The position numbers were made by a program, and so were the translations under genes. A DNA stretch of 64,000 nucleotides, from NCBI RefSeq assembly GCF_006345805.1, contig NC_043015.1, forward strand, positions 21,142,001-21,206,000. Direction: 5' to 3'. Each line of letters starts with the position of its first letter. The first letter of the stretch is position 1. The notes beneath the pieces were generated by a model. It saw nothing but the letters and a program-made list of their open reading frames with translations. It was not told the origin of the DNA and did not search any database. The DNA is from Octopus sinensis. Taxonomy: Eukaryota. Shown piece by piece: positions 11,170 through 54,505 of the stretch.

Positions 11170-11542
11170 CAGCACGCCGGGCGAAATGCTTAGCGGTATT
11201 TCGTCTGCCGTTACGTTCTCAGTTCAAATTCCGCCAAGGTCGACTTTGCCTTTCATCATTTCGGGGTCGATAAATTAAGTACCAGTTACTCACTGAGGTC
11301 GATGTAATCGACTTAATCCGTTTGTCTGTTCTTGTTTGTTCCCTCTGTGATTAGCCCCTTGCGGGCAATAAAGAAATAGGTATTTCGTCTGTCGTTACGT
11401 TCTCATTTCAAATTCCTCCGAAATGGATTTTGCCTTTCATTCTTTCGGAGTCGATAAATTAAGCACCAGTTGCATACAGGGATCAATCTAATCGAGAGGC
11501 TCTTTTCCCAAAATTTTCGAGCGTTGTGCCTAGAGCAGAAAA
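11170..11542 (+). mobile_element. SINE family B
   Basis: Colinear with 2756-3149, slightly 5' truncated. Confidence 0.85.
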
Positions 11543-12779
11543 GTATATATAAACACCTATGCATATATGTATAGATACTTACTAGCGTACATACATACGA
11601 CCGCGCACCTACTCATTCTTTCTCTCTCTATATATATATGTATATACACACACACATACATGCATGTATACACAACACACGTGATATTCTGGCGCATCTA
11701 ACTCGCTTGACAATGGGGATTGAATTTTTTTCTCAAATGAATTATCTCCCCTTGAATAGCTGTTTGATTATAGCAACACTTCATAAAATTACACACCATT
11801 AGAGCAATTCTAAAGTATTTCAGTGCCACATAATGTTTGACAGTTTTCGACACTTACCAAATTAAAAGTACAATGTCGTCCATGTGCTTCTGTTCAGTTT
11901 CCCCCTGAATTTCTTTCATAAACCATGCCTCGGCACGTGGATATAGAAACATACAAATACAGTTGAGATGGTACTCAGATCCTTATGGTTATGAGGTTGT
12001 TTTCTTCTATTTTATGGCCATGCTGGTGCACTGCAAAGTATGTTCTTCCATCAGGTTATTTAGTTCTAAATATGAAAGCGTGAATGTTAATATATTTCAT
12101 TAGAGTAGCAAAATAATTAATATCTATTTGGAATCTTTTAAAAGTATATAGTGAGAAGTGACACCAAAGAAAATTGAGTTTCAAGCAGTCCAGAGTTAAA
12201 TATGCATGTGCAATGTGTGTCTTAAAAATATGTTTCAGTTTTAATAACCATAGTAACAACACAGAGCGTATTTCATCCTCATATTCATCTCTTCAGCGAA
12301 TTAATGTTTTTGTGAAAATTTTCAGATATTATGAAATTGAAATAATGATACAGGCATTTTCCCCATCTCAGGCTTCTGGAAAAAGAATATAGTAAAATTC
12401 TAGCAATCAAAAGCAATCTGATAAATATGAAATATAATAAATGAAAGGTATATATCAAATGTGAATTAAATTCATTGACTGAGGCGTTAATGAAAATTAA
12501 TATAAGAATTTATAAGGGAGATAACTAGTTTAAACGCTGCACGAGACAGTGGTCCTGGATCATAGGGTACAGAGGTTAGAACTGTGAAAAGGTTCTGACT
12601 TCATAGTACCCCTTCATTAAAGAAGACTTACTCAGTGTCTGCAAAGATACCAGAATAGGAATTGTCTCGTGTGTCTGAACATCATATATTAGTTAGGCAA
12701 AGGACAATGCACAAACGAAAAAAAAAATACACACAGCCGTAAGGGTATATAAGGATTATATGTGAATGGTTATACACAT

Positions 12780-15242: not shown

Positions 15243-15533
15243 AATGTCATTGTTAGAAAGACTGAGAACATAAACCTGCTCTGACTATGAATTGATGTGA
15301 TACTACACACATCATATCACCATGAAAATCTCATACAAAAAGAAACCAAATATACAACCACACAAATATATATATATATGTATATATATAAAATTATAAA
15401 TTAGGGTACCTATGAGATACCACCATGCTGAAAATAGCAGCAATGATCTGACTCTAAAACTACCTTAATTTTCCATATATCAACACGGAGAGAAAAAAGA
15501 GACAAGATGAAACGAGTAAAAGATTACTGCATA

Positions 15534-15592
15534 ATCCTAGATCCCGGATTTCTGTCTTTGCATTTAGTAATGCTTTGCCTAGTCAGTAGAAT
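15534..15592 (-). ncRNA. Mutated hammerhead copy (G8U) in the left arm
   Basis: ATTCTA-CTGACTA-GGC..GAC-A-GAAATCCGGGATC-TAGGAT. Confidence 0.55.
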
Positions 15593-16074
15593 ACACACAG
15601 AAAAGAGACATAAATACATATATATATATAAGTACAACATACGAATACTTACATATACGAACGTATACCTACATATATATGCACGTATGCATCATGGCCA
15701 GTTCAAATGCCCGCCGTTTAATTTCAGGTGAAATATGGTTAAAATATCGCTGCAGTAAATACATTGACGAAATAAATTTAAATTTATATAAATAAGGATA
15801 AGATCGTTAACTTACTACGGCGATATTTTATCCACATCTCACATGGAATTAAACGGAGGGCATTTTGAACTGGCCATGATGCATACGTTCATATATATGT
15901 AGGTATACGTTCGTATATGTAAGCATTCTTATGTTTGACAGATACGTTTATATCGATTGAGATACTCATATCAATGAGGAGGAATGATTTTGTCTGAAAT
16001 CTTTCAATATATTGTCTGTATTTATATATCTTTTTATGTTTCTTTTTATGTATTTATGTTTCTTTTCTGTTCGT

Positions 16075-16133
16075 ATTCTACTGACGAGGCAAAGCATTAC
16101 TAAATGCAAAGTCAGAAATCCGGGATCTAGAAT
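16075..16133 (+). ncRNA. Type I hammerhead ribozyme candidate with intact catalytic core
   Basis: Helix I ATTCTA/TAGAAT; CTGACGA; helix II GGC/GTC capped by GCATT/AATGC; GAAA; helix III ATC/GAT with CGG loop; predicted cleavage after AUC (C16127). Confidence 0.75.
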
Positions 16134-16388
16134 TATCCAGTAATTTTTTACTAGTTTCATCTTGTCTCTTTGTTTTCTCTCCGTGTTGATATACGGAAAA
16201 TTAAGGTGGTTTTAGAGTCAGATCATGACTGCTATTTTCAGCATGGTGGTATCTCGTAGATACCGGAATTTATGATTTTAATAATTATTACCTTTGAAAG
16301 TTTTTTTTCCATGCTGACCACTTAATAAAATCGTTATTATATTTTAAATTAACGATCGTATCCTTAATTATATAATATGTATATATAT

Positions 16389-17335: not shown

Positions 17336-17663
17336 CCATGTGCCTTCCGTGTGCCGCTCGCGGATCCCATAAAGAAATATATATTGCCTACAGTAATAGC
17401 CTACAACAGGATGAAAAGTGCCGCCACTTTAAAAATACCATTCCGTGCCGGATCGCCCCTACCTACCCAAGCTACGCTAGTGGATATAGAGGACATGAAA
17501 AGGGTTAACACGGAAACTAAGCCAGACATTTTGAGGGAGGTTTAGTCGCAAGATCCACCCAGCATTTGATTGGTATCCATCTTATCTACTTGGAAAGTGA
17601 TCTACAACATCCTTATACATTATTTACACTTGACGGATATTTGTCCTCGTCTTGTTTGTTGTT

Positions 17664-17709
17664 ACCACAACGTCTCTGCTGATACACCCTCCAGCCTTCA
17701 TCAGGTGTA
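17664..17709 (-). ncRNA. Minimal hammerhead copy with A14G mutation
   Basis: TACAC-CTGATGA-A-GGCTG..CAGCA-GAGA-CGTT-GTG. Confidence 0.55.
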
Positions 17710-17774
17710 TTGGGGAAACTTCAAAGCTAGGATTCTCATTCCTAAGGTATTTTTCGATGTTGTTGTTGTTGTTG

Positions 17775-17827
<53 letters not shown>

Positions 17828-17883
17828 TATTATTATTATTATATTATTATTCGAATGAGAATCCAGGTTTGAAATTTCCCCAA

Positions 17884-17929
17884 GACACCTGATGAAGGCT
17901 GGAGGGTATATCAGCTGAAAAGTCGTGTT
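17884..17929 (+). ncRNA. Minimal type I hammerhead ribozyme candidate
   Basis: GACAC-CTGATGA-A-GGCTG gagggtatat CAGCT-GAAA-AGTC-GTGTT; helix I GACAC/GTGTT, GUC triplet. Confidence 0.7.
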
Positions 17930-18841
17930 AACAACAAACAAGATGAGGACAGATATCCGTCAAATGTAAATAATATACATAATTTCACATCTTTTAAATA
18001 TAAACCTGTAGCATCCGTATTGGTAGAATTTGAAACCTGAAAGGACACAGCAGGAACTAAGTATACAAAAAACACTTCGGCCAATATCCTAACATTTTTA
18101 CGAGTACACCACTACGCAATATATTGAAAAATATCCTCAAGGGGCAGCGTAAAGTCTCTGCTGTTGACTAGAGTTAAGTAGGCTTTTAAGTATGCGCCAC
18201 AACATTTCGACCACCTCAACGTTTGACTTTTTGCAAACACCGACAGATATATTTATAAATATAGATAGATGTTCTCAGTTGAACGCTAAATATGCAAGTG
18301 CTCTATTAAAAGGTCAACCGATGACGACAACGTTACATATTGATGATTGTCTAAAGTTCAACGAGTAAATCTATATTTTTGTTTTCTTAGAAAACAACTC
18401 TCTTATTGACGATGTAATTGGATTTGGTTTCTTGAAGTAAGTTCAAAAATCATCGAAAAAAATGCAAGAAATATATCGACGCAAAAACGCTGATATTCTT
18501 TATTTTCTTTTGTGTTTATCAAGTTTTAAACCAATGAACTGCGACCATGCTGAAGCACTGACGACAATGAATTCAATCAGTGAAATGAAGACCAGTGTTT
18601 ACTCTGGTGCCCATTTTATTGAGACATATTGAACACAGGAATTTTGGGTTATGTTCCCTTTCTAAAAAGTCAACTGCTGATGAGAAATCCTTTGGGTATT
18701 TAGATCGAGTTTCCCGGGGTTACACAAACACAGATGTAAAAGCGAATGTAGACAGGCAGATAGACAGACAGTCAGACACACATCTACATATAGGCAAACA
18801 TATATCTCTACTTGTAAATACGTATGCAGTTGCATCGCCGG

Positions 18842-21200: not shown

Positions 21201-21912
21201 TCTAACGACATGCACTAAGTCTGACAGATATATATATATATATAGTGGAATAATCTTAGTTACTGGATTATCTAAACTAACACACATAGATATCTAAACT
21301 AACTGCTTGTGGAAGTATCCTGAAAGTGGTTGAATACTCCAAATAAATCTCCACAAGCAGAATCAATAAGTCTCAGCATATAGCAACACCAGAGAATTGA
21401 ATTCTAGGTAGAATCCATTCTATGAGTGTCTGAGCAGTTTCCATCCAAATTCACTCATAAGTATTGGGTCTGCTCAGGGCTTTGGCAAAGTGGCAATTAG
21501 CAAAAGTGCCTGTGAGTGAAGTCTATACCAGGACCTCAGGAGAGAAAGCAAACTGAACAGTCGGCTATGCTCCGTCTATTGCTCATGTACACGCATACAT
21601 GTTATTTATATCTATGTGTGTTATGTACGTATGCATGCATCTACGCAGGTATTTAAATTCATTTTTTGAGGAAGGTGCATTAATACAGATATTAAGGCGC
21701 ATCATTAAGGCTGGCAGAAATACTAGCACGCCGGGCGAAATGCTTAGCGGTATTTCGTTTGCCGGTACGTTCTGAGTTCAAATTCCACCAAGGTCGACTT
21801 TGCCTTTCATCATTTCGGGGTCGATATAATCGACTTAACCCGTTTGTCTGTCCTTGTTTGTCCTCTCTGTGTTTAGTCCCTTGTGGGTAGTAAAGAAGTA
21901 GGTATTTCGTCT

Positions 21913-22103
21913 AATACAGTTCTATATTTAAGAGATGAGGAATTATGTACATTATTTACATTATTTACATTTGATGGATATTTGTCCTCATCTTATTTGT
22001 TGTTAACACAATGTTTCGGCTGATATGCCCTCCAGCCTTCATCAGGTATCTTGGGGACATTTCGAACCTGGGTTCTCATTCCTAAAGTATTTTTCGATGT
22101 AAT

Positions 22104-22164
<61 letters not shown>

Positions 22165-22278
22165 CATCATTAGGAATGAGAACGCAGTTTCGAAATTTCC
22201 CCAAGACACCCGATGTTGTGCTAATAGCAAACAAGACGAGGACAAATATCCGTCAAATGTAAATAACGTAAATAATGT
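21913..22278 (-). mobile_element. Non-autonomous HHR palindrome element, copy 2
   Basis: Same structure as 17617-18011 in opposite orientation with an (ATT)n centre; 12-bp TSD GGTATTTCG(T/C)CT at 21901-21912 and 22279-22290. Confidence 0.85.
22005..22050 (-). ncRNA. Minimal type I hammerhead ribozyme candidate
   Basis: GATAC-CTGATGA-A-GGCTG gagggcatat CAGCC-GAAA-CATT-GTGTT. Confidence 0.7.
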
Positions 22279-22444
22279 GGTATTTCGCCTGTCTTTACGA
22301 TCTGAGTTCAAATTCCACCGGGGTCAACTTTGCTTTTCATACTTTCGGGTTCGATAAATTAAGTACCAGGTACGTACTTGGGTCGATCTAATCGACTGTC
22401 GCCTCCCACAAAATTTCGGGCCTTGTGCCTAGAGTAGAAAAGGA

Positions 22445-22752
22445 CACTGAGCCCCAACATTGGAATGTAGATAAGAAAAGCAATGTCGCATATTAAACTT
22501 GAGAAAAGTCTTGCAGATCTTTACTGTTCCAATTTAAAATTGTATTTGTAATGTACGAGTTAAGTGGTTGATTTCGTTTTGTGAAAACCTTAGTTTATCC
22601 GGATTTTCAATTAGGCATTCACTCACAAACCCAAGTGCACCAATTTTTGGCATGAACGTTAATTTATAATTTGGATATAAAAGCTGGAGGTTTTGAAGTA
22701 GTTTTCCAACGTAATCCTCTTTCTCTTTGATTTTCTCATCAGCACGACAGCT
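22445..22752 (-). mobile_element. RLE-type non-LTR element, C-terminal fragment
   Basis: SCRADEKIKEKEDYVGKLLQNLQLLYPNYKLTFMPKIGALG...GTVKICKTFL; abuts (ACAT)n; same family as 53743-54085. Confidence 0.7.
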
Positions 22753-23550
22753 GTATGTATGTATGTATGTATGTATGTATGTATGTATGTATGTATGTAT
22801 ATGTGTATGTACGTATGTATGTATGTATGTATGTACACATGTATGTATGTAAGTATGCATGCGTGCCTGCATGTATGTATGTATTTATGTATTCATGTAT
22901 GTACGTTAGTTTGTATGTTAGTTGGGTTTGTAGTTAGGTGGGTATGTCTATAGGTATGAAAGTATATATATATATGTGTGTGTGTGCGTTTGTGTGTATG
23001 TGTGAGCGTGCTTGTTTGTGTGTGAGTATCTATTCTTTTATGTATACATGTATCACCTGTGTATGCATATATTTATCTACTTATACATATGTGTGTGTGT
23101 GGGTTGGTGAGTGTACGTGTGTCTGCTTAGGAAATATTGAATATCTATAAAAATAAATAATTGATGAACATTGATTTACAAAGTCTTTAGTAAATTATAA
23201 ATATTTTAATTATGCAATATCCTCATTAGCAAATCATTTATGCGCAGACTTTACTTGTATAAAACTGAACATTTTTAAAATTTCATTTCCGCCTTTCGTA
23301 CTTGTAACAGATGAGGAGGGGGTGAATCCTCTTGGCCGCCAGCGAACAACAGGGAATTCGTAAAGCCAGAGCTACGGAACGCCGATTCTTATATCTTTCA
23401 GTAGAAATGAATTTTGGTGGAGATCATCCTCGAAAAAATTCGGTGAAAGCTATGTTGATGGCCTCGACATTACGTCTTCGTGAAAGACGTTCAGTGAGCT
23501 CGGCTCTCATTGAGAGAAAAAGAACAAGAGGAAAAAAGAACAACAGGTAG

Positions 23551-27070: not shown

Positions 27071-27160
<90 letters not shown>

Positions 27161-27199
27161 TAATAATATAATATTATTATTATTATTATTATTATATTA

Positions 27200-28110
27200 T
27201 TAGCATTAATTGCGATCGATCGTTGCGACCATGTTCATAGATTTGGCATAACATGATAAGCTTTCTCCATACTGGTCAGCTTTTCGCTTGGATTTGCTAT
27301 TTATTATGATCAATTCCTTTCCGCCTCATGTTCCTTATTGCAACATCATTGAATCTCAGTTTAGGTCTTCCATGGCTTCTTTTCCCCCTGCATAGATGGA
27401 ATTAAAGGAGTTGTCTAGGGAATCGGCTGTTATCTATGCTGTGTACTAGACCCAAAGGATGGCAAACCGTAGGATCACTTCATTCGTCGGCATTCGTCGG
27501 CACACCTTACGATCATAGGTCGGCACACCGAAGGAGCTCTTCATTCCCGATCTTGTCAAAGAGAGTAATATTAATAATTAGTCTTAGCTATCTCATCATA
27601 GATGCGTGTACTTGTCTACTTGAATTTTATAAACAGTCCAGGTTTCAACTCCATACAACAAGGAAGAAAGCACTATAATCTGGTTTACCTTACATTTGAC
27701 CAAGTGCAGAAACATGCCTATTCTTCCACAGCCTCTGATGTAGCCTTCCAAATAAAGTACTAACTCTGCTCATTCTTCCTGGTCCAGTCGTGCAATATCT
27801 AGGCTGCTGCCTAGGTATTTGAATACTTTGCACTGGAACAACTTTCCATCTCTAATAGAGATGTATTCCTCTGTTACAGGGACAGGTAAGTTCTCTACAG
27901 GTTGGTAAAGGCATTCAGTTTTTCTGAAGTTGCTCTTTAAGTTGTGCAAACCTAACAAGGTTATATATTAATTTGTGCATAACTTCAGCACTGTAGGCAA
28001 CCAGCGCAATATCATCAACGAACATCTTTCGCACTAGGATCTTCTAGTGCGTGTCTTCGCTTTATATCATGCATCAGTGAATAGACTAGCATCATGAGGC
28101 GTGTGGATGT
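27200..28110 (-). mobile_element. Decayed RTE-clade LINE, 3' part with (AAT)n tail
   Basis: FVDDIALVAYSAE; KTECLYQP..FKYLGS; RGKRSHGRPKLRFNDV; followed on the minus strand by an AAT repeat at 27117-27200. Confidence 0.8.
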
Positions 28111-38202: not shown

Positions 38203-39029
38203 CAGCCGTGAAGCGATTATACATTGTGACGAGAAATTTCCTATTCAAAAAAACCTATATAATCATCAATCGATAATACACAAACGACTAACGCGATTAT
38301 CGTAACGACTTATTGTTAATTGTTTTGTCAATTGCGATCAAAGCTTCCGGTCAGGCATGATGGGAGCTGGTATTGGGTAAGGGAAGTGAAATGATTGAAT
38401 GAATTGACTATTTACCATGTGCAGTCACGCTCACCCTAGTTCCCTACACTCTTTCAAACTATTAGGATGTGCTACTTACCTGTCAATTATAAATGCGATC
38501 CCTAACCTGTTGGCACCCCTTTCATGAAACACAATGTTTCCAAGGACCCGGCGATCACGCGCATAACAAAATACAATGAATCGCATAATACATAATACAT
38601 AATACACACACACCACACACACACACACATAAACACAAACACACAGACAGACACACACACAGACACACAGGCATACACACTCAGAAACACATATGTGTGT
38701 GTGTATATATATATATACACACGCAGTACACATATGATACATATATAATGCAAAACGACGCTGCAGACTGTGATAGTTAAGAAAGTAGATATAAATGAAA
38801 ATTTTTCCTGCGCTGCGCAGTAGCAAGTGATCCTCAGCCCTGTACTAGTCTAGGGTTTTGTGGTTGAGTATTCCTGATTTATACTGCCATTTTATATTGT
38901 GGTCTCAAATCAACCAATCAACCTTTCTTACACCCTTTCTATTAAAAAGGAACTCCATACACATTATAGCATTTTAAACATTTCTCATTGAAGAGTTAGA
39001 CGATGACTGCTGAGTATATTTTGTGTGGA

Positions 39030-40300
39030 TTTTTCTTGTTAGATTTTTCTTTCTAGCTTTTACTTCATTTTGAACTGCTTTGTTTATATATAATAGATCA
39101 TGCCTTCCTCTAGTCTTCTTCCTGTCACCTTTTTGTTCTTCTGGGAGTAAATTTCGGTTTTGAAGGTGCTCGTAAATGCTTTCTGAAACCATTTCTGTTA
39201 ACAGCTTCCACACTAATGGTGAGCCAGTGATTGGTCTATAGTGGTTATCTGTACTACCCTTGCTATTATATTGTATGGTGTGTCCTCCCTTAATCACCCA
39301 ATTTGGTATTATTTTTCCATTAAGGCAATCCTGAAGTTGTTCTCTCAGTCCCCCATGTAAACTACTAAATTTCTTTAGCCAGTACCATGGCCCTTCCAAT
39401 TCGGCAATTTTCTAGCTTCTTTTGCATTAGGTTTCTCATCTTCAGTACTTCGTTCTCCGCTGTTCTGTGTCGGATAATCTAGTGATACTGATGTATTTTT
39501 TCTGATATCTGGAGAGCCTTATTACTACTGCTATGACACACTGTTTCAGCTCTTCTATTTCTGTCCCAAATCCATTCTTTTTGAATAAGTGTCTTTTCTC
39601 AAGGGAAGATTTGCTTCTTGTGTTTCCTAACTTGTTCAGCTTCCCAGCTTCTATTCTACTTAGGTCTTGTCTTAAAGTCTTCACTTTATTTTGTATTCTT
39701 GTTATCCACATTGGCTCTTTTTAAATCTTTCCCTGTGGGATATCTTATCTTCTAGTCACTACTATTTCTCATACATAGTTAGTGTCTCCTATATTTTTAG
39801 TATCTATCCTACTGATAACAGAACATTCCTAGTCATTTCTAGAAGCTTCCTTCTGTTGGTACCTTTTAATGCTGGCAATCTTTACATTCTGCAACTCATC
39901 TAAAATCGTCTGATCTTCCTCGCTCAAATCATTTAAGTCGCTGCTGCCATTTGTCCCTTCCTAATTGGTAGCGCTATTATTATATTCTCCTTTAGGTTCT
40001 TCTTTGGTTTGAGCTGTAATTCTTATGTTGTGGTTTGCCTTTCCCACTGCCTGGTCTTTCTTCTCCAGTTCTCATGTAATCTCTTCTACTTCCAATTCTG
40101 TCATCCAATTTCTTCTCCCAATAATATTAGCTTGATCAACTAATCTCTGCTCTGTCAATTTAAACATACCCTTCTTTACCCAAAGTGTTAACATCGTTTT
40201 CTATAGCCCCCTTCTTTTAGGTTCACTTTCTAAGTAGCACTGCATCAATATCCTGTTTTCTTCGCTGCTACACTTCTTCCTCCTTGTCTGCTGTTGTATT
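39030..40300 (-). mobile_element. R4/Dong-like non-LTR retrotransposon, N-terminus to early RT, decayed
   Basis: LTEQRLVDQA; PMWITRIQNKVKTLRQDLSRI; YWLKKFSSLH..YRPIT..WKLLT..LLPEEQKG..DLLYINKAV. Confidence 0.85.
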
Positions 40301-41005
40301 AGGATGACAGCTGTGGTCAGTCTGCATCTTTACTGAAACACTTCCGAGCGAGAGGCCTCCCCTTCATGGCCCAGTTTCATTTTCTCTGTTACAAGCACAG
40401 TTTCTTCGGAAACATGTCTCCTATAAACTGAGGCAAGGTAACGTTCGTCACCATGGCCATCACCATCACCATCACCACTTCTATTTTTCGACACCTGAAA
40501 GTTTCAAGCAAGTTTCTATTGCATCAGAGGTTGCACCTTTGTGACGGTTGGGTGTGCTGCATTTTTTGTTGAGTGGGGGATATTGTATTGTATCAATGTT
40601 TTGTTATGGGGTTTGCTTTGAGTCTACTGTCGTATTCGTTTTTTGCATTGTGTGTTGTTTGTGAGGCGCAGGCTGTATTCTGTCGGTTATCGGCCTTCAA
40701 TGGCACGTGAGGGCGTTGTTAATTTTGTTGGGTATTTACGGTATGAGGTTATTCCTGTATGTTTTTGGAGGAGTGTTTCGTAGTTGTGTGTGTAAATCCT
40801 AAATCAACTATTTCATAATATTCATGGTCATCTGTTCACCGTTGTTTCTCTTTTGCTTGGTTTTGTTATGTGTTCGTCTTTACAGCGTTTACTTTTTTAA
40901 CTGAACACCGCCCGTGGACTTATGCTGATATTTCTTTCGTAGTTAAAATTATTAATGATGTATCAGAGAGGGACCGAGAAGAAGCAGCATATATGGCATG
41001 TATAA

Positions 41006-41071
<66 letters not shown>

Positions 41072-41087
41072 TTTATTATTGTTGTTG

Positions 41088-41145
<58 letters not shown>

Positions 41146-41147
41146 CA
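41006..41147. repeat. (ATT)n microsatellite, tail or target of the adjacent Dong-like element
   Basis: Direct reading. Confidence 0.95.
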
Positions 41148-41149
41148 TT

Positions 41150-41595
41150 ATTTTGTTTTATCTCAGCTTTTGCTTGGAACTCCTGCATGCAACCTAAGGT
41201 ACCATGCTATCTGTCCTTTTCAGCTATCTAATACTTTCCTAATTATTCTGGCCGTGCCAAGAAGCCAAAACGTTTGTAACAGTTCCACTGGACACTCTAT
41301 TCCAGTTTCCTTTATATTCCTCTTGATGCCTTGTGATACTGTTCCCAGGACCCAACAATAATTGGCACTATCTTCATCTTCTTCATTTTCCATAGGTGGG
41401 CTATTTCATACTTAAATACTTGTATTTATCTGTTTTTTCCGCCTTCATTCTTAACTATTCGTTGGTCAAAGGGACATGCAACATCAGTCATATAGTATAT
41501 GTAGTGTACCTTGACCCCACCCCCACTAGGTCCGGTCTCTTATGCTTTAGCACCTGTTCTGTTTGGATTGGGAAACCCCAGGAACTTATCTGATA
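41150..41595 (-). mobile_element. R4/Dong-like element 3' end with RLE domain
   Basis: WGFPIQTEQVLKHKRPDL..DVACPFD..IVPIIVG..LLGTARIIRKVLD, then 3' UTR and (AAT)n. Confidence 0.85.
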
Positions 41596-44160: not shown

Positions 44161-44399
44161 GCCATAATGAATCTGGCAAAAGAGCTACAAATGAACATAA
44201 CATTCCAGTCATCACACGATGCCACCCCCACCACCCTATCGCACAAACTCCCTTTGCTGCCATTAATAAACAAACAATCACCATTAACAATCACCAATAC
44301 AGTCAAAACCAGTCACCATTATCGCCTCAACCTTTTTGCTCAATGCACAAGGCACCAGCCCTTCCACCGATGCCCAGAAATGGGATATCCAATTTATTG

Positions 44400-47170
44400 A
44401 GGACTGGGTTAATGGTAATCCACACCATACCCCTTTTTCCCTCCTCACAGTGACCCATCTCAATAACCTTCACGTGGAAGCTGAGATGAGAGTGAAGAAT
44501 TTTACAGCCATCCATGCAGATCATGTCGGCAGAAGAAAGGGTGGGACCGCCATTTTCGTGCACGATACTTTTTCGGCTGAACCAATGGACGTATTTACAA
44601 ACGGCTACTGTAAAGCAGCTTCTGTGTTTAGTAAAGCCAACAATTTAATAGTAGTTGAACTCTATAGGTGACTCCTAACTCCTTTCCTACGCTTCAAGGA
44701 ATGTCTCGACAGTATTAAGTGTTTCGTTCATCAGTGTCATGCTGGCAACATATTAATGATGGGGGACTTCAATCTTCCCAGTGTTGATTGGTCCACAAAC
44801 AGTTTGAAACCAATTTTTTCACCTCAACCCTTGATAAGGAAGCAATCGAACTGATTTTTGATTTCATGGATGAGCTTTTCCTGACCCAACTTGTTCGTGA
44901 ACCAACAAAGTGTGACAAAAACACTTTGGACCTATTGTTCAGTAACCACACTGACATTATCCTCAGTATTGCAGTGGAAAAACACCAGTACTCTCAGACC
45001 ATGGCACGGTTCTCTGCGACCTGAGATTCTACCACCCAAAGATCAAATCCAGTAGCATCTCTCCAGTCCATCCATTTGACACTATGGATCTTCATAACGC
45101 AGACTGGGTTGCGATCAATCATGATCTTTCACAAGTTGATTGGGCCTTCGCGCACGCACACACTCCCACTAACATAAGCATATCATGGCATACATTTGTA
45201 GATACTATGATAAATATATGCGTAGAACATACTCCATTAAGATCAGTATACAAATCTAAGTGCATAATTCCTAGAAATAGAAGAGTAATTATCAGAAAAA
45301 TAAAATGAATTAACAAGAAAATCAATCAACTTAAATTCTGCCAGTAGCAACGCACCCATTCGACTGCCATTGCTTCACTCAAATCGAAAAACACGACCAC
45401 CAAAAAAGCATGATGACCATCATTAGCAGCCAAAGACAGCTGAATAGAGTTGGGCCACCGAGAAAACAAGACACTATCTCAAAATGTTCTTTCCTTTTGT
45501 AAAAAAAAAAGCAACATAGAGACAGCTTCCACTGTTGGTCCTCGGGTTGATGAGAACTACACTCTACATGATGTCTTCAGTAATGTTAATGCGGTTGATG
45601 TGGCTAGTATCAGTGATGTAAACCCTCAACTAACCACATCTGACATAACTTTTAGTGCTCCTGATATCCTAACAGAAATAGATAAGATCAAGCACAACTC
45701 GGCAGAAGGTCCTGATAAGTTCCCGGTCACTGTCCTGAAGATGTGTCGACATCAACTTGCACCCCCTCTAGCTGAGCTCTGCAGAAACTCACTTGATGCA
45801 GGCTACATTCCTCATCATTTTCTATCCCAGTCTGTTGTTCAAGTCTTCAAAAAGGGAAACAAATCTCTTGCAGTGAACTACCGTCCAATTTCACTCACTT
45901 CTCATATCATTAAAGTATTTGAAAGAGTGGTGAGATCGCGAATAACCGACTTCCACGAAGACAACAATCTGCTGAACCCCAACCAGAATGGTTTCTCTGA
46001 TGTCAGGGAATGGCTGTCGCAGCTTTTGTACCATTTTGATGAACTCTTAAAGCGTTGGGAGAAGACTCCAACACTGACGTCATATGTCTTGATTTCAGCA
46101 AGGCTTTTGACAGAGTGGACCACAAAATCCTGCTGAAGAAAATTTTCATCATTGGAGTCCGTTGAAAGCTGCTGCAGTGGATAAAGTGCTTCGTGACAAA
46201 CAGAGCTCAACAGGATGTGTTTGAGGGAATACGATCCAGCTAAGCCAAAGTCAGAAGTGGTCTCCCGCAAGGTACTGTGTTGGGCCCGTTCCTCTTCATT
46301 ATTTACATCAATGACATAGGAGATGTCATCAGACATTTTACATTGAAAATCTTTGTAGATGATTCCAAACTTCAGAAATCCATAACCGGCATGGGAGACG
46401 GAACATGCCTTCAGTCATATCTGTTTGCTATTGTGCAATGGGCGGTAAATATGCTTTTAAATGAAGATAAGTTTGATTTGATCCACTTTGGAAAAGAGGG
46501 AACTCTGAAATTACCATACGCGCTTCCCTTGAGCAACTCCCTAGTGTCATCCAACAACACAAGAGACCTTGGAGTAATTGTTGATAACAATCTAAGCTGG
46601 AGTTCCCACATAAACAGCAAGGTTGACTTGGCCCGCAAGATATGCTCCTGGATTCGGAGAACTTTTCAGTCTAGAGATGCCTGCACCATCATCCATCTGT
46701 ACCCTAATTTTGCCCGATTCCTCCTTGAATACTGTTGCCCACTGTGGTCTCCCCATACGAAGCAACTCATTCTGAAAGTAGAAGCACTCCAGAGGTCAAT
46801 AACAAGAAATATAGACAGCATGAGAGACATTGATTATTGGAGTCGGCTAAAAAAACTCAATTTCTGCTCTCTTCAACGTCGCCGGGAGCAGTACATCATG
46901 TATGTTAAGTGGAAAATATTCCATCAATATTGCACAAATGATGCTGACATCAGTTTTAAAATCCATTGGTCCCCGTGCTATCCGCCCTCTACAAAAATCG
47001 AACTCGGTACACATAGTAACATTATGTCACAATTATTTTACTTCAACCGGACAAGCTCTCTTTAATACCATACCAAAATACGTCAAAACGGAAACGGATC
47101 TCATAAAATTCAAATGTTCATTGGACAAATTTCTTCAAAAAATCTTATTAAAATTCATGTCCGGCTAATC
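44400..47170 (+). mobile_element. CR1/L2-group LINE, near-complete APE+RT ORF2 disrupted by stops and frameshifts
   Basis: GGTAIFV, GDFNLP, NTLDLLF (APE); GPDKFP, NYRPISLTSHIIKVFE, DFSKAFDRVDH, GLPQGTVLGPFLFIIYIND, FVDDSK, RDLGVIVD, LEYCCPLWSP (RT). Confidence 0.95.
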
Positions 47171-48697: not shown

Positions 48698-48731
<34 letters not shown>

Positions 48732-48742
<11 letters not shown>

Positions 48743-49109
48743 TATATATATATATATACGTGGTTCCGGGTTCAGTCCTTCTGCGTGGCACCTTGGGCAA
48801 GTGTCTTCTACTATAGCTTCGGGCCGACCAAAGCCTTGTGAGTGGATTTGGTAGACGGAAACTGAAAGAAGCCCGTCGTATATATCTATATATATGTATG
48901 TGCGTGTATGTTTGTGTGTCTGTATTTGTCATCCTAACATTGCTTGACAACCGATGCTGGTGTGTTTATGTCCCCGTCACTTAGCACTTTGGCAAAAGAG
49001 ACCGATATAATAAGTACTGAGCTTACAAAGAATAAATCTCGGGGTTGAGTTTCTCGATTAAAGGCTGTGCTCCTGCATGGCCGCAGTGAAAGTGACTGAA
49101 ACAAGTAAA

Positions 49110-49151
<42 letters not shown>

Positions 49152-49513
49152 TATATATATATATATACGTGGTTCCGGGTTCAGTCCTTCTGCGTGGCAC
49201 CTTGGGCAAGTGTCTTCTACTATAGCTTCGGGCCGACCAAAGCCTTGTGAGTGGATTTGGTAGACGGAACTGAAAGAAGCCCGTCGTATATATCTATATA
49301 TATGTATGTGCGTGTATGTTTGTGTGTCTGTATTTGTCATCCTAACATTGCTTGACAACCGATGCTGGTGTGTTTATGTCCCCGTCACTTAGCACTTTGG
49401 CAAAAGAGACCGATATAATAAGTACTGAGCTTACAAAGAATAAATCTCGGGGTTGAGTTTCTCGATTAAAGGCTGTGCTCCTGCATGGCCGCAGTGAAAG
49501 TGACTGAAACAAG

Positions 49514-49518
<5 letters not shown>
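48732..49518 (+). repeat. Tandem direct duplication (~409-bp period) of a 5'-truncated family C SINE
   Basis: 48760-49107 and 49169-49516 are identical except one A (GGAAAC vs GGAAC); the unique flank TACACACATATTA is also duplicated. Confidence 0.95.
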
Positions 49519-49571
<53 letters not shown>

Positions 49572-53035: not shown

Positions 53036-53720
53036 TGGTGGTTTCCCCCTCGTTATCGAGTATGGCCATTGCGCGAAGCTTAATCAATGTTGTTATCGTG
53101 AAATGCCTGTGCAAGAAGATTTTTTTAAAGTGAGGAAAGGCTGTGCAGTGAGGCAATCCCACTCACTAAGCAACAGCAGCCATAATCCGAAAAGAAGAAC
53201 AAGTCAACATCATCGGTAACCACTGAGCCGCAGGTTTTATGTCGCAGTTATCCCAGTTACCTGAGTTACCTTCTCCTACAAGGATGCCCTAACAAAAGCT
53301 AGGAGTCCTTCACTCCCAATGGTTTAACCGCGCGATCGGGTATTCAGTCCCATTATTTCTATGTTCCCGCGCATGATACAGGCTTAAGACATTTATTGGA
53401 TGGCCGTAGACTATCAAGAGTTCCTCCGCCGTTTGACGGGTTTTGTTTTTCATCCCGCAGGGTGTCCAATAAACACCGCTCATCTTCGTGCACCTCAGGA
53501 ATAGTTACCTGATTAGCACCACCAACCAAACAATTTTATAGAGAAATGCACTTCATAAAGTTTTCTTTAGAGTAAAATATCTCGTGAGACACATGCTCAT
53601 TAAACCATCGAATACACCGTATCTATCCTCTGATCATGCCGGTTTAGCCGCCGACGACCCGACCATGCAACAGGTTGTACTGGGTTACATGTTACCAGTA
53701 GCGCTCGAAAGTGACCTGAC
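53036..53720 (-). mobile_element. RTE-type 5' UTR-like element carrying a 162-bp insert
   Basis: ACCTTCTCCTA..GG.TGCC.TAAC.AA.GCTA motif resembles RTE 5' UTRs on the reverse strand; GC-richer than flanks; bounded by (ACAT)n. Confidence 0.45.
53476..53637 (+). repeat. 162-bp direct repeat, copy 1
   Basis: Three mismatches relative to 57500-57661. Confidence 0.95.
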
Positions 53721-53742
53721 ATACATACATTCATACATACAT

Positions 53743-54085
53743 AGAGAACATTTATGGAGAATTATTATGGAACTTACAGCTCTTGTACCCTGACTATAAA
53801 TTCTTTTTTGTACTTACCATCACAAGTGCATTAGGTTGTGTACCAACGAATTGGCACAAAATCCTAGAAAACACCGGTTTCACGGCAAAAGAAATTGACG
53901 CGGAATTTAATGGTAGTACTGTGAAGATTTGTGACGCATTGTGTATGCATGGACAGTTCAACCAAGAGACCATTTCAACCACATATATACAAACACCAAG
54001 AACTCTATTAACAGAAAAACACTTGTCCTTTGTTGGCAACTGGTTTGAATTCTCCCATGAACTTAAATTAAGCTCAAGGAAAAAT
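53743..54085 (+). mobile_element. RLE-type non-LTR element 3' fragment in (ACAT)n
   Basis: ENIYGELLWNLQLLYPDYKFFFVLTITSALGCVP..GSTVKIC; flanked by CATACATACATTCATA at 53720-53735 and 54090-54105. Confidence 0.75.
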
Positions 54086-54111
54086 CATACATACATACAT
54101 TCATATATATG

Positions 54112-54505
54112 CGATGATATATATTTGGAAGATCTTAGAGGGATTAGCCCCCAGTTTTGGAATTGATAGCTATACTATTCCTCATAAGGAACGGCACTGC
54201 ATCATACCAAAGATACCGTCTAAAATAAGGACACAGTACTGAGTTTCAAGGGCCGGCAATTGTTCAAACTCTTGCCAGGCAACCTTAGAGATCTAAATGG
54301 TGTTGATGTGGAAGTTTTCATGGAATGTGTGGACAGGTTTCTATTTAAGATACCAGATGAACCCACATAGCGGCAGGAGTCACAAAGGCTCCATCCAACT
54401 CGCTACTTCACCAAAAACAATATCGGAAACAACACCGAGTAACTACTGGTGGTGCAGCACCATGACCTCAGCCCTGGGCTGAAACCAGTAAAATATAAAA
54501 AATAA
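54112..54505 (+). mobile_element. CR1/L2-group LINE 3' end
   Basis: IYIWKILEGLAP..LSFKGRQLFKLLPGNLRDLNGVDVEVF..VDRFLFKIPDEP, then 3' UTR and A-rich tail. Confidence 0.8.

What the first reader, a model, noticed from the sequence alone, without database searches (positions are those of the whole stretch)
21901..22290. 366-bp ORF-less ribozyme palindrome inserted as a unit into a SINE with a 12-bp TSD
Seen: the host SINE is uninterrupted at 11379-11400, but here GGTATTTCG(T/C)CT is duplicated around the insert. The (ATT)n lies inside the TSDs, so the microsatellite travels with the element. Inference: a non-autonomous retroelement mobilised by PLE machinery that also disperses (ATT)n microsatellites.
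Basis: partly seen in the sequence, partly recalled or inferred. Interest (0 to 1): 0.85.

Follow-up and report, generated by a model that had tools for sequence, protein, structure and literature searches.

The report
Palindromic Penelope stump with ATT centre
This is a real, old insertion made of two mirror-image ends of a Penelope-like jumping gene joined at an ATT repeat; the design is already described, and its ribozyme here is broken, but the family's hairpin RNAs look heavily edited.

Summary
A 366-bp insert (21913-22278) has an 11/12 TSD and splits a SINE that is intact elsewhere in the window. Each copy is two head-to-head pseudo-LTR ends of a Penelope-like element (PLE): minimal hammerhead, a 35-36-nt tail on one arm only, TSDs of different length, and (ATT)n at the join. 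These features are published for PLEs. None of the four arms keeps an intact hammerhead, and in the full hairpin the core is paired. 'Moves as a unit' is not shown: the tail is on opposite arms in the two copies, and a 9-bp indel is shared within each copy. That favours the palindrome being rebuilt at insertion around a preferred join. No coding partner was found. New side result: RNA reads of the family show an A>G/T>C excess (47 of 80 variable places against 8 of 32 in contigs of the best-matching run), as expected from A-to-I editing; no same-individual DNA control exists. The scan noted similar palindromes before in shark-like DNA. Host probably an octopus (recalled, not shown).

The parts
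21725..21900 (+). Host SINE, part left of the insertion
   Evidence: BLAST to intact copy 11170-11545; alignment
21901..21912 (+). Left target-site duplication (12 bp)
21913..21948 (-). 36-nt PLE-type tail, on this arm only
   Evidence: loose ends cluster at 21912-21917
21949..22085 (-). Long pseudo-LTR arm, reads outward from the centre
22005..22050 (-). Minimal hammerhead motif: 5-bp stem I, CUGAUGA, one extra A, 6-bp stem II, GAAAC, AUU in place of the family GUU
   Evidence: T22012C in 47-75% of laid depth
22086..22101 (-). Inner unique extension, present on one arm only, same in copy B
22102..22172 (+). (ATT)n, about 23 units, at the inversion join
22170..22278 (+). Short inverted arm; 28-nt deletion at 22215/22216 removes hammerhead stem II and GAAAC; no tail
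22279..22290 (+). Right target-site duplication
22291..22442 (+). Host SINE, part right of the insertion
17608..17616 (+). Copy B left TSD (9 bp, 8/9 match)
17617..18011 (.). Copy B, 395 bp: short arm with the inner extension, (GTT)n(ATT)n, inverted arm with hammerhead motif 17884-17929 and a 35-nt tail
18012..18020 (+). Copy B right TSD

Best explanation
The insert is a stump of a Penelope-like (GIY-YIG endonuclease class) family: two pseudo-LTR ends joined head to head. Mechanism: (1) a PLE protein nicks both target strands 9-12 nt apart, giving the TSD (TSD shown; enzyme inferred); (2) reverse transcription starts inside the RNA at one of two sites 35-36 nt apart, one for each target end, so one arm gets the tail and the other does not (two end classes shown; cause inferred from Frangieh 2024); (3) one cDNA runs as far as an (AAT/AAC)n tract in the template and stops, the other stops about 15 nt earlier, and they join through a TTA/TAA microhomology (shared join shown in 2 of 2 copies; joining step inferred). 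The palindrome is therefore made at insertion, and the microsatellite comes from the template. Whether that template is the 3' end of a coding PLE or a short non-coding master is open. After insertion the copies decay; read-through transcripts fold into long hairpins that hide the hammerhead and are edited by ADAR (editing signature seen; enzyme inferred).
For: Min-hammerhead geometry matches Cervera 2014, which also reports motif pairs 100-700 bp apart on opposite strands as probable truncated PLEs; the descriptor found 2 hits in the window, both in this family, and 0 in each of 20 shuffles. Tails are 36 and 35 nt, on different arms, and both short arms end at the same nucleotide; Craig 2021 describes a 30-40-bp tail at either end and inverted 5'-truncated copies. 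Loose ends in four runs cluster at 21912-21917 and 21951-21958. TSDs of 12 and 9 bp fit the 8-10 bp reported in Adineta. The 9-bp unit is present on both arms of A and absent from both arms of B, and reads of organism D show both states (696 of 2942, 589 of 2657). Opposite-strand joints at other places (21949/21992 in X1; 21962/22001 in X23 and X24) show inversions with other centres. RNA depth falls from 2413 (21985-93) to 792 (22084-92) in X23.
Against: Only two full copies could be read. Both share the same centre, which a fixed unit predicts more simply. X1 contig depth is roughly flat from 22003 to 22083 (3.0-4.7 million), with no steady inward fall, and the RNA fall may reflect divergent subfamilies or edge effects. 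Arm identities do not discriminate: within copies 96/109 and 111/130, between copies 85/102 to 113/130; apart from the 9-bp indel there is one 2:2 column for within-copy sharing and none for arm-type sharing. No RT or GIY-YIG partner was found.
Confidence: 0.58

Rival explanations
1. One reading: a fixed palindromic non-autonomous element, founded once or a few times from a PLE stump, is copied whole by PLE proteins in trans. A-type and B-type are separate lineages.
For: Same inner extension, same repeat position and nearly the same join in 2 of 2 copies. Flat X1 depth along the inner arm. Very abundant: 56,749 contig records laid in X1, SINE part included. pLTRs alone suffice for mobilisation in trans in Adineta, and non-autonomous Chlamys elements exist.
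Against: Needs at least two independent foundings with the same centre, or arm conversion plus a tail switch. Inversions with other centres exist. In a full-length transcript the hammerhead core has unpaired probability of 0.01 or less at its first six positions in all three folds tested.
Confidence: 0.3
2. A foldback or MITE-type DNA transposon with long inverted repeats and an internal microsatellite; the hammerhead motif is incidental.
For: Palindromic, non-coding, TSD-flanked, short.
Against: TSD lengths differ (12 and 9); the ends are not inverted repeats of each other because of the one-sided tail; reads show two end classes; hammerhead geometry is kept.
Confidence: 0.04
3. A metazoan non-LTR retrozyme that replicates through a circular RNA cut by the hammerhead.
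For: Size and low GC are in range and a type I hammerhead is present.
Against: Retrozymes are head-to-tail tandems with canonical hammerheads. Here the arms are head to head, stem III is absent, and no pile-up of read starts or ends was found (table 6).
Confidence: 0.03
4. The (ATT)n is not templated: the telomerase-related PLE reverse transcriptase adds it by repeated copying of a few template bases at the end of the first cDNA.
For: The repeat sits exactly at the join and differs in length and make-up between copies. PLE RTs share an ancestor with telomerase.
Against: Slippage after insertion explains the length difference. The repeat continues an open Asn-rich frame that stops at the TGA in the hammerhead core, and (AAT/AAC)n inserts are known inside Penelope ORFs.
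Confidence: 0.05

Closest known systems
Endonuclease-bearing Penelope-like elements with inverted pLTRs and a tail (Arkhipova 2013 PMC3846280; Craig 2021 PMC8557442)
   Same: Head-to-head inverted pLTRs, 30-40-nt tail at either end, TSD about 9-12 bp, (AAT/AAC)n tracts, very high copy number.
   Different: No ORF between the arms, no coding partner identified, and the join falls at the same (ATT)n in both copies seen.
Minimal hammerheads of metazoan PLEs (Cervera and De la Pena 2014 PMC4209133)
   Same: Stem I 5 bp, one extra base after A9, G10.1-C11.1, palindromic 15.2-16.2 in the family majority, motif pairs on opposite strands 100-700 bp apart.
   Different: Stem II is 6 bp against 7-8 in Schistosoma; all four arms in this window are damaged.
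Poseidon of Anolis, PAc (Frangieh 2024 PMC11167929)
   Same: Two end classes that define a tail; an ATG inside CUGAUGA; short ends 85-94 nt and tail ends about 130 nt past that ATG, against 111-118 in PAc. PAc cuts both strands and prefers 5'-ATT-3'.
   Different: The frame from that ATG stops after 25 codons here; no protein is known for this family.
Hyper-edited repeats: lizard Penelope and the palindromic frog Harbinger (Porath 2017 PMC5625713)
   Same: Self-folding repeat with an A>G/T>C excess in RNA.
   Different: That paper left octopus out of its repeat analysis; the signal here lacks a same-individual DNA control.
Metazoan non-LTR retrozymes (Cervera and De la Pena 2020 PMC7229834)
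   Same: Small, non-coding, low GC, type I hammerhead.
   Different: Those are head-to-tail tandems with canonical hammerheads and circular RNAs.

Membership tests
Penelope-like element (EN+) insertion | Minimal hammerhead in the pLTR | tested here: met
   2 descriptor hits in the window, both in this family, 0 in 20 shuffles; family majority has G16.2
Penelope-like element (EN+) insertion | Direct or inverted pLTRs, usually head to head when inverted | tested here: met
   2 of 2 copies
Penelope-like element (EN+) insertion | Optional 30-40-nt tail at either end | tested here: met
   36 and 35 nt on different arms; two end classes in reads
Penelope-like element (EN+) insertion | Short TSD of variable length | tested here: met
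   12 bp (11/12) and 9 bp (8/9); n = 2
Penelope-like element (EN+) insertion | Same pLTR flanks an RT + GIY-YIG ORF | tested here: inconclusive
   No genome held; five protein searches with 46-aa arm frames found nothing credible; such short queries are weak
Fixed non-autonomous palindromic unit | Arm-specific differences inherited between copies | tested here: inconclusive
   No 2:2 column groups arms by type; the 9-bp indel groups by copy; centre shared; n = 2
Active hammerhead ribozyme | Intact core and a stem III able to form, here as a dimer | tested here: not met
   Copy A long arm ACAU and copy B tailed arm AAGU are not self-complementary; A short arm deleted; B other arm reads GAGAC in place of GAAAC
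Active hammerhead ribozyme | Self-cleavage | not testable with these tools
   No pile-up of read ends in fragmented cDNA libraries, which is a weak test
Non-LTR retrozyme | Head-to-tail tandem repeats with canonical type I hammerhead | tested here: not met
   Head-to-head arms, no stem III
Non-LTR retrozyme | Circular RNA | tested here: inconclusive
   No circle-like joint among the 15 of 75 joints shown
MITE or foldback DNA transposon | Inverted repeats at both termini and fixed-length TSD | tested here: not met
   One-sided tail; TSD 12 against 9

The most novel reading that the evidence does not exclude
A short non-coding RNA running from (AAT)n to the tail acts as a PLE-dependent mini-element. 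At each insertion it is primed from both target ends and joined at the same (ATT)n, so it builds a fresh 130-bp hairpin and a new microsatellite every time. At its copy number it would be a main source of the excess double-stranded RNA and A-to-I hyper-editing reported for octopus.
Probability: 0.15. Interest if true: 0.65.

Novelty: new member of a known kind. Interest (0 to 1): 0.33.

Why it matters
How PLEs form head-to-head ends and one-sided tails is still open: Craig 2021 and Frangieh 2024 both say the later steps are unproven. A family with a reproducible join and many thousands of copies would let this be tested by counting alone. If the editing signal holds, it names a candidate source for the unusually high double-stranded RNA content of octopus noted by Porath 2017. 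This one copy is a decayed insertion with no sign of function.

Tried and rejected
No whole genome is held, so copies could not be collected. Exact 19-22-nt hammerhead patterns: 0 stretches in viral contigs, 0 in prokaryote genomes, 7 in metagenomes, all 7 without flanking likeness on inspection. Protein searches with two 46-aa arm frames: none scored; atlas hits under 0.8; 2 hits were long bacterial-type repeat proteins (P0002 named Calx-beta protein) and were rejected; no Pfam hit. Rfam miRNA hits are generic hairpin matches far below gathering score. Summed contig depth is not used as a copy number. In one search the 46-nt slice of B's short arm was one base out of register, so its energy values were discarded. 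The host SINE could not be tied to a named family: one search gave two listings that were not read. Literature: nine searches showed no paper on this family or on editing of octopus PLEs; subscription journals and Repbase/Dfam libraries are not covered, and the O. vulgaris repeat library may already hold it.

Full report
Observation. The insert runs 21913-22278 (366 bp) between GGTATTTCGTCT and GGTATTTCGCCT. With it removed, the site aligns to two intact copies of the same dimeric SINE in the window. In 2418 random site pairs at the same spacing, 12 reached 11/12 and 29 reached 8/9, so the duplications are unlikely to be chance. The insert folds into one long hairpin, z = -14 and -17 against 100 shuffles. 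A BLAST of the insert against the window found one more full copy, B, at 17617-18011 with a 9-bp duplication, and no further arm fragments.

Anatomy. Read outward from the centre, all four arms are the same sequence, 83-88% alike. One arm in each copy carries about 15 extra inner bases and then the repeat; the other starts at or within a few bases of TTAGGAATGAG. Both short outer ends stop at the same base. The long outer ends add 36 nt (A) and 35 nt (B). In A the tail is on the arm with the inner extension; in B it is on the other arm. A 9-bp unit is present once more on both arms of A than on both arms of B.

Hammerhead. A relaxed descriptor found 2 hits in the window, 22045-22010 (-) and 17889-17924 (+), and none in 20 shuffles. 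The geometry is that of the PLE minimal hammerhead: 5-bp stem I, an extra base after A9, G10.1-C11.1, no stem III (Cervera 2014, results and discussion read). In laid data 47% (X1), 75% (X13), 71% (X23) and 68% (X24) of depth has C at 22012, which gives GAAAC-GUU with a self-complementary ACGU. The flagged copy has ACAU there, and its other arm lacks 28 nt of the motif. B's arms are also damaged. In full-length folds the core is paired. So the title's 'ribozyme' is a family feature, not a working property of this copy.

Other copies through reads. Twenty of 24 listed runs hold part of the stretch. I laid 4 of them on 21850-22098 only, so the centre and right arm were not covered. Loose ends cluster at 21912-21917 and 21951-21958 with unrelated flanks: two end classes at many sites. 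RNA depth is about 1300 over the tail, 2200-2400 just inside it and about 80 across the SINE junction (X23). Opposite-strand joints at 21949/21992 and 21962/22001 show inversions with other centres; only 15 of 75 joints were displayed. Inward depth falls threefold in RNA reads but is roughly flat in X1 contigs, so the reads do not settle fixed against variable centres. No place had many molecules starting or ending.

Mechanism. Frangieh 2024 (main text read) shows that a Poseidon protein nicks and extends both target strands, starts reverse transcription at two internal sites that bound the tail, prefers ATT and does not need hammerhead cleavage. Priming from both target ends, one at each start site, gives exactly this layout (inference). 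In B the tailed arm cannot be a fold-back copy of the tail-less arm made in the same event, so simple self-priming is not enough. The tail switch and the copy-specific 9-bp state mean the palindrome was built at least twice with the same centre, or was converted. I give rebuilding at insertion 0.58 and a fixed unit 0.30; two copies cannot decide it. On the sense strand the repeat reads as poly-Asn followed by about 18 codons that end at the TGA in the hammerhead core. That fits the end of a coding frame, and Arkhipova 2013 reports (AAT/AAC)n tracts in Penelope ORFs (passages and discussion read). No protein search supported it, so coding origin is a lead only.

Microsatellites. Of 4 long ATT/AAT arrays in the window (6 regex runs of 8 or more units), 2 are inside this family. 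The one at 41006-41152 abuts what looks like a LINE end (label recalled), and the one at 27116-27202 lies among AT repeats. The family disperses (ATT)n, but it is not the only source.

Editing. Over the laid stretch, A>G plus T>C make up 47 of 80 variable places in X23 and 49 of 79 in X24, against 8 of 32 in X1; C>T plus G>A are 22, 21 and 18. Of the 40 displayed rows (51 more not shown), 30 lie in the insert; 6 where X1 already differs in over half its depth were dropped. Of the remaining 24, the 11 with an RNA/X1 ratio of 4.5 or more are all A>G or T>C, against 2 of the other 13 (Fisher p = 3e-5, threshold chosen after seeing the data). X13, same organism label and same contig method as X1, shows A>G at 21980 (10.7% against 0.7%), 22044 (7.9 against 1.1) and 22059 (5.7 against 0.3), but not the T>C sites to the same degree. 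Caveats: X23 and X24 are another organism label than X1; X1's kind is not on record and X13 is only guessed to be RNA; contigs drop rare variants; reads come from the family, not this locus. Porath 2017 (passages read) reports heavy editing of lizard Penelope and exceptional dsRNA content in octopus, with no repeat breakdown for octopus.

Host and novelty. The SINE and repeat landscape look like Octopus (recalled; no call names the organism). O. vulgaris has 190 PLE families covering 6.83% of the genome, 31 with recent insertions (first third of the text and supplement hits read). Craig 2021 and Cervera 2020 were seen as passages. Earlier scan notes describe like palindromes in shark-like DNA and suggested the rebuilt-at-insertion reading; no look-alike of this sequence was indexed. 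Verdict: a real insertion, a new member of a known kind, interest 0.33.

Noticed in passing
window 15389-16280: About 890-bp foldback with 90-92% inverted arms (15389-15620 and 16047-16280), a further inner inverted repeat, TA-rich flanks and no hammerhead hit; looks like a MITE or foldback DNA element.
   Followed up: partly
window 44288-47168: Broken LINE on the + strand; two frames hit Pfam RVT_1 below the curated cut-off.
   Followed up: partly
window 38974-39411, 40819-41361, 22534-22884, 53720-54166: Fragments resembling restriction-endonuclease-type LINEs (label recalled). The first gave atlas hits of 0.93-0.94 to clusters with RVT_1 on 12-30% of members; none hit Pfam. One abuts the (ATT)n at 41006.
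   Followed up: partly
window 48699-49571: 408-bp tandem duplication at 98% identity; recent duplication or assembly artefact.
   Followed up: no
window 21810-21820: The host SINE copy has a private 32-bp deletion relative to two other copies.
   Followed up: no
window 21901-21957 (read joints): Five X1 contigs join SINE positions 21901-21905 to the short end of the arm, which suggests other insertions near the same SINE site; the letters between are not known.
   Followed up: no
window 27116-27202: (AAT)n facing (ATT)n, a small microsatellite palindrome with no element arms.
   Followed up: no
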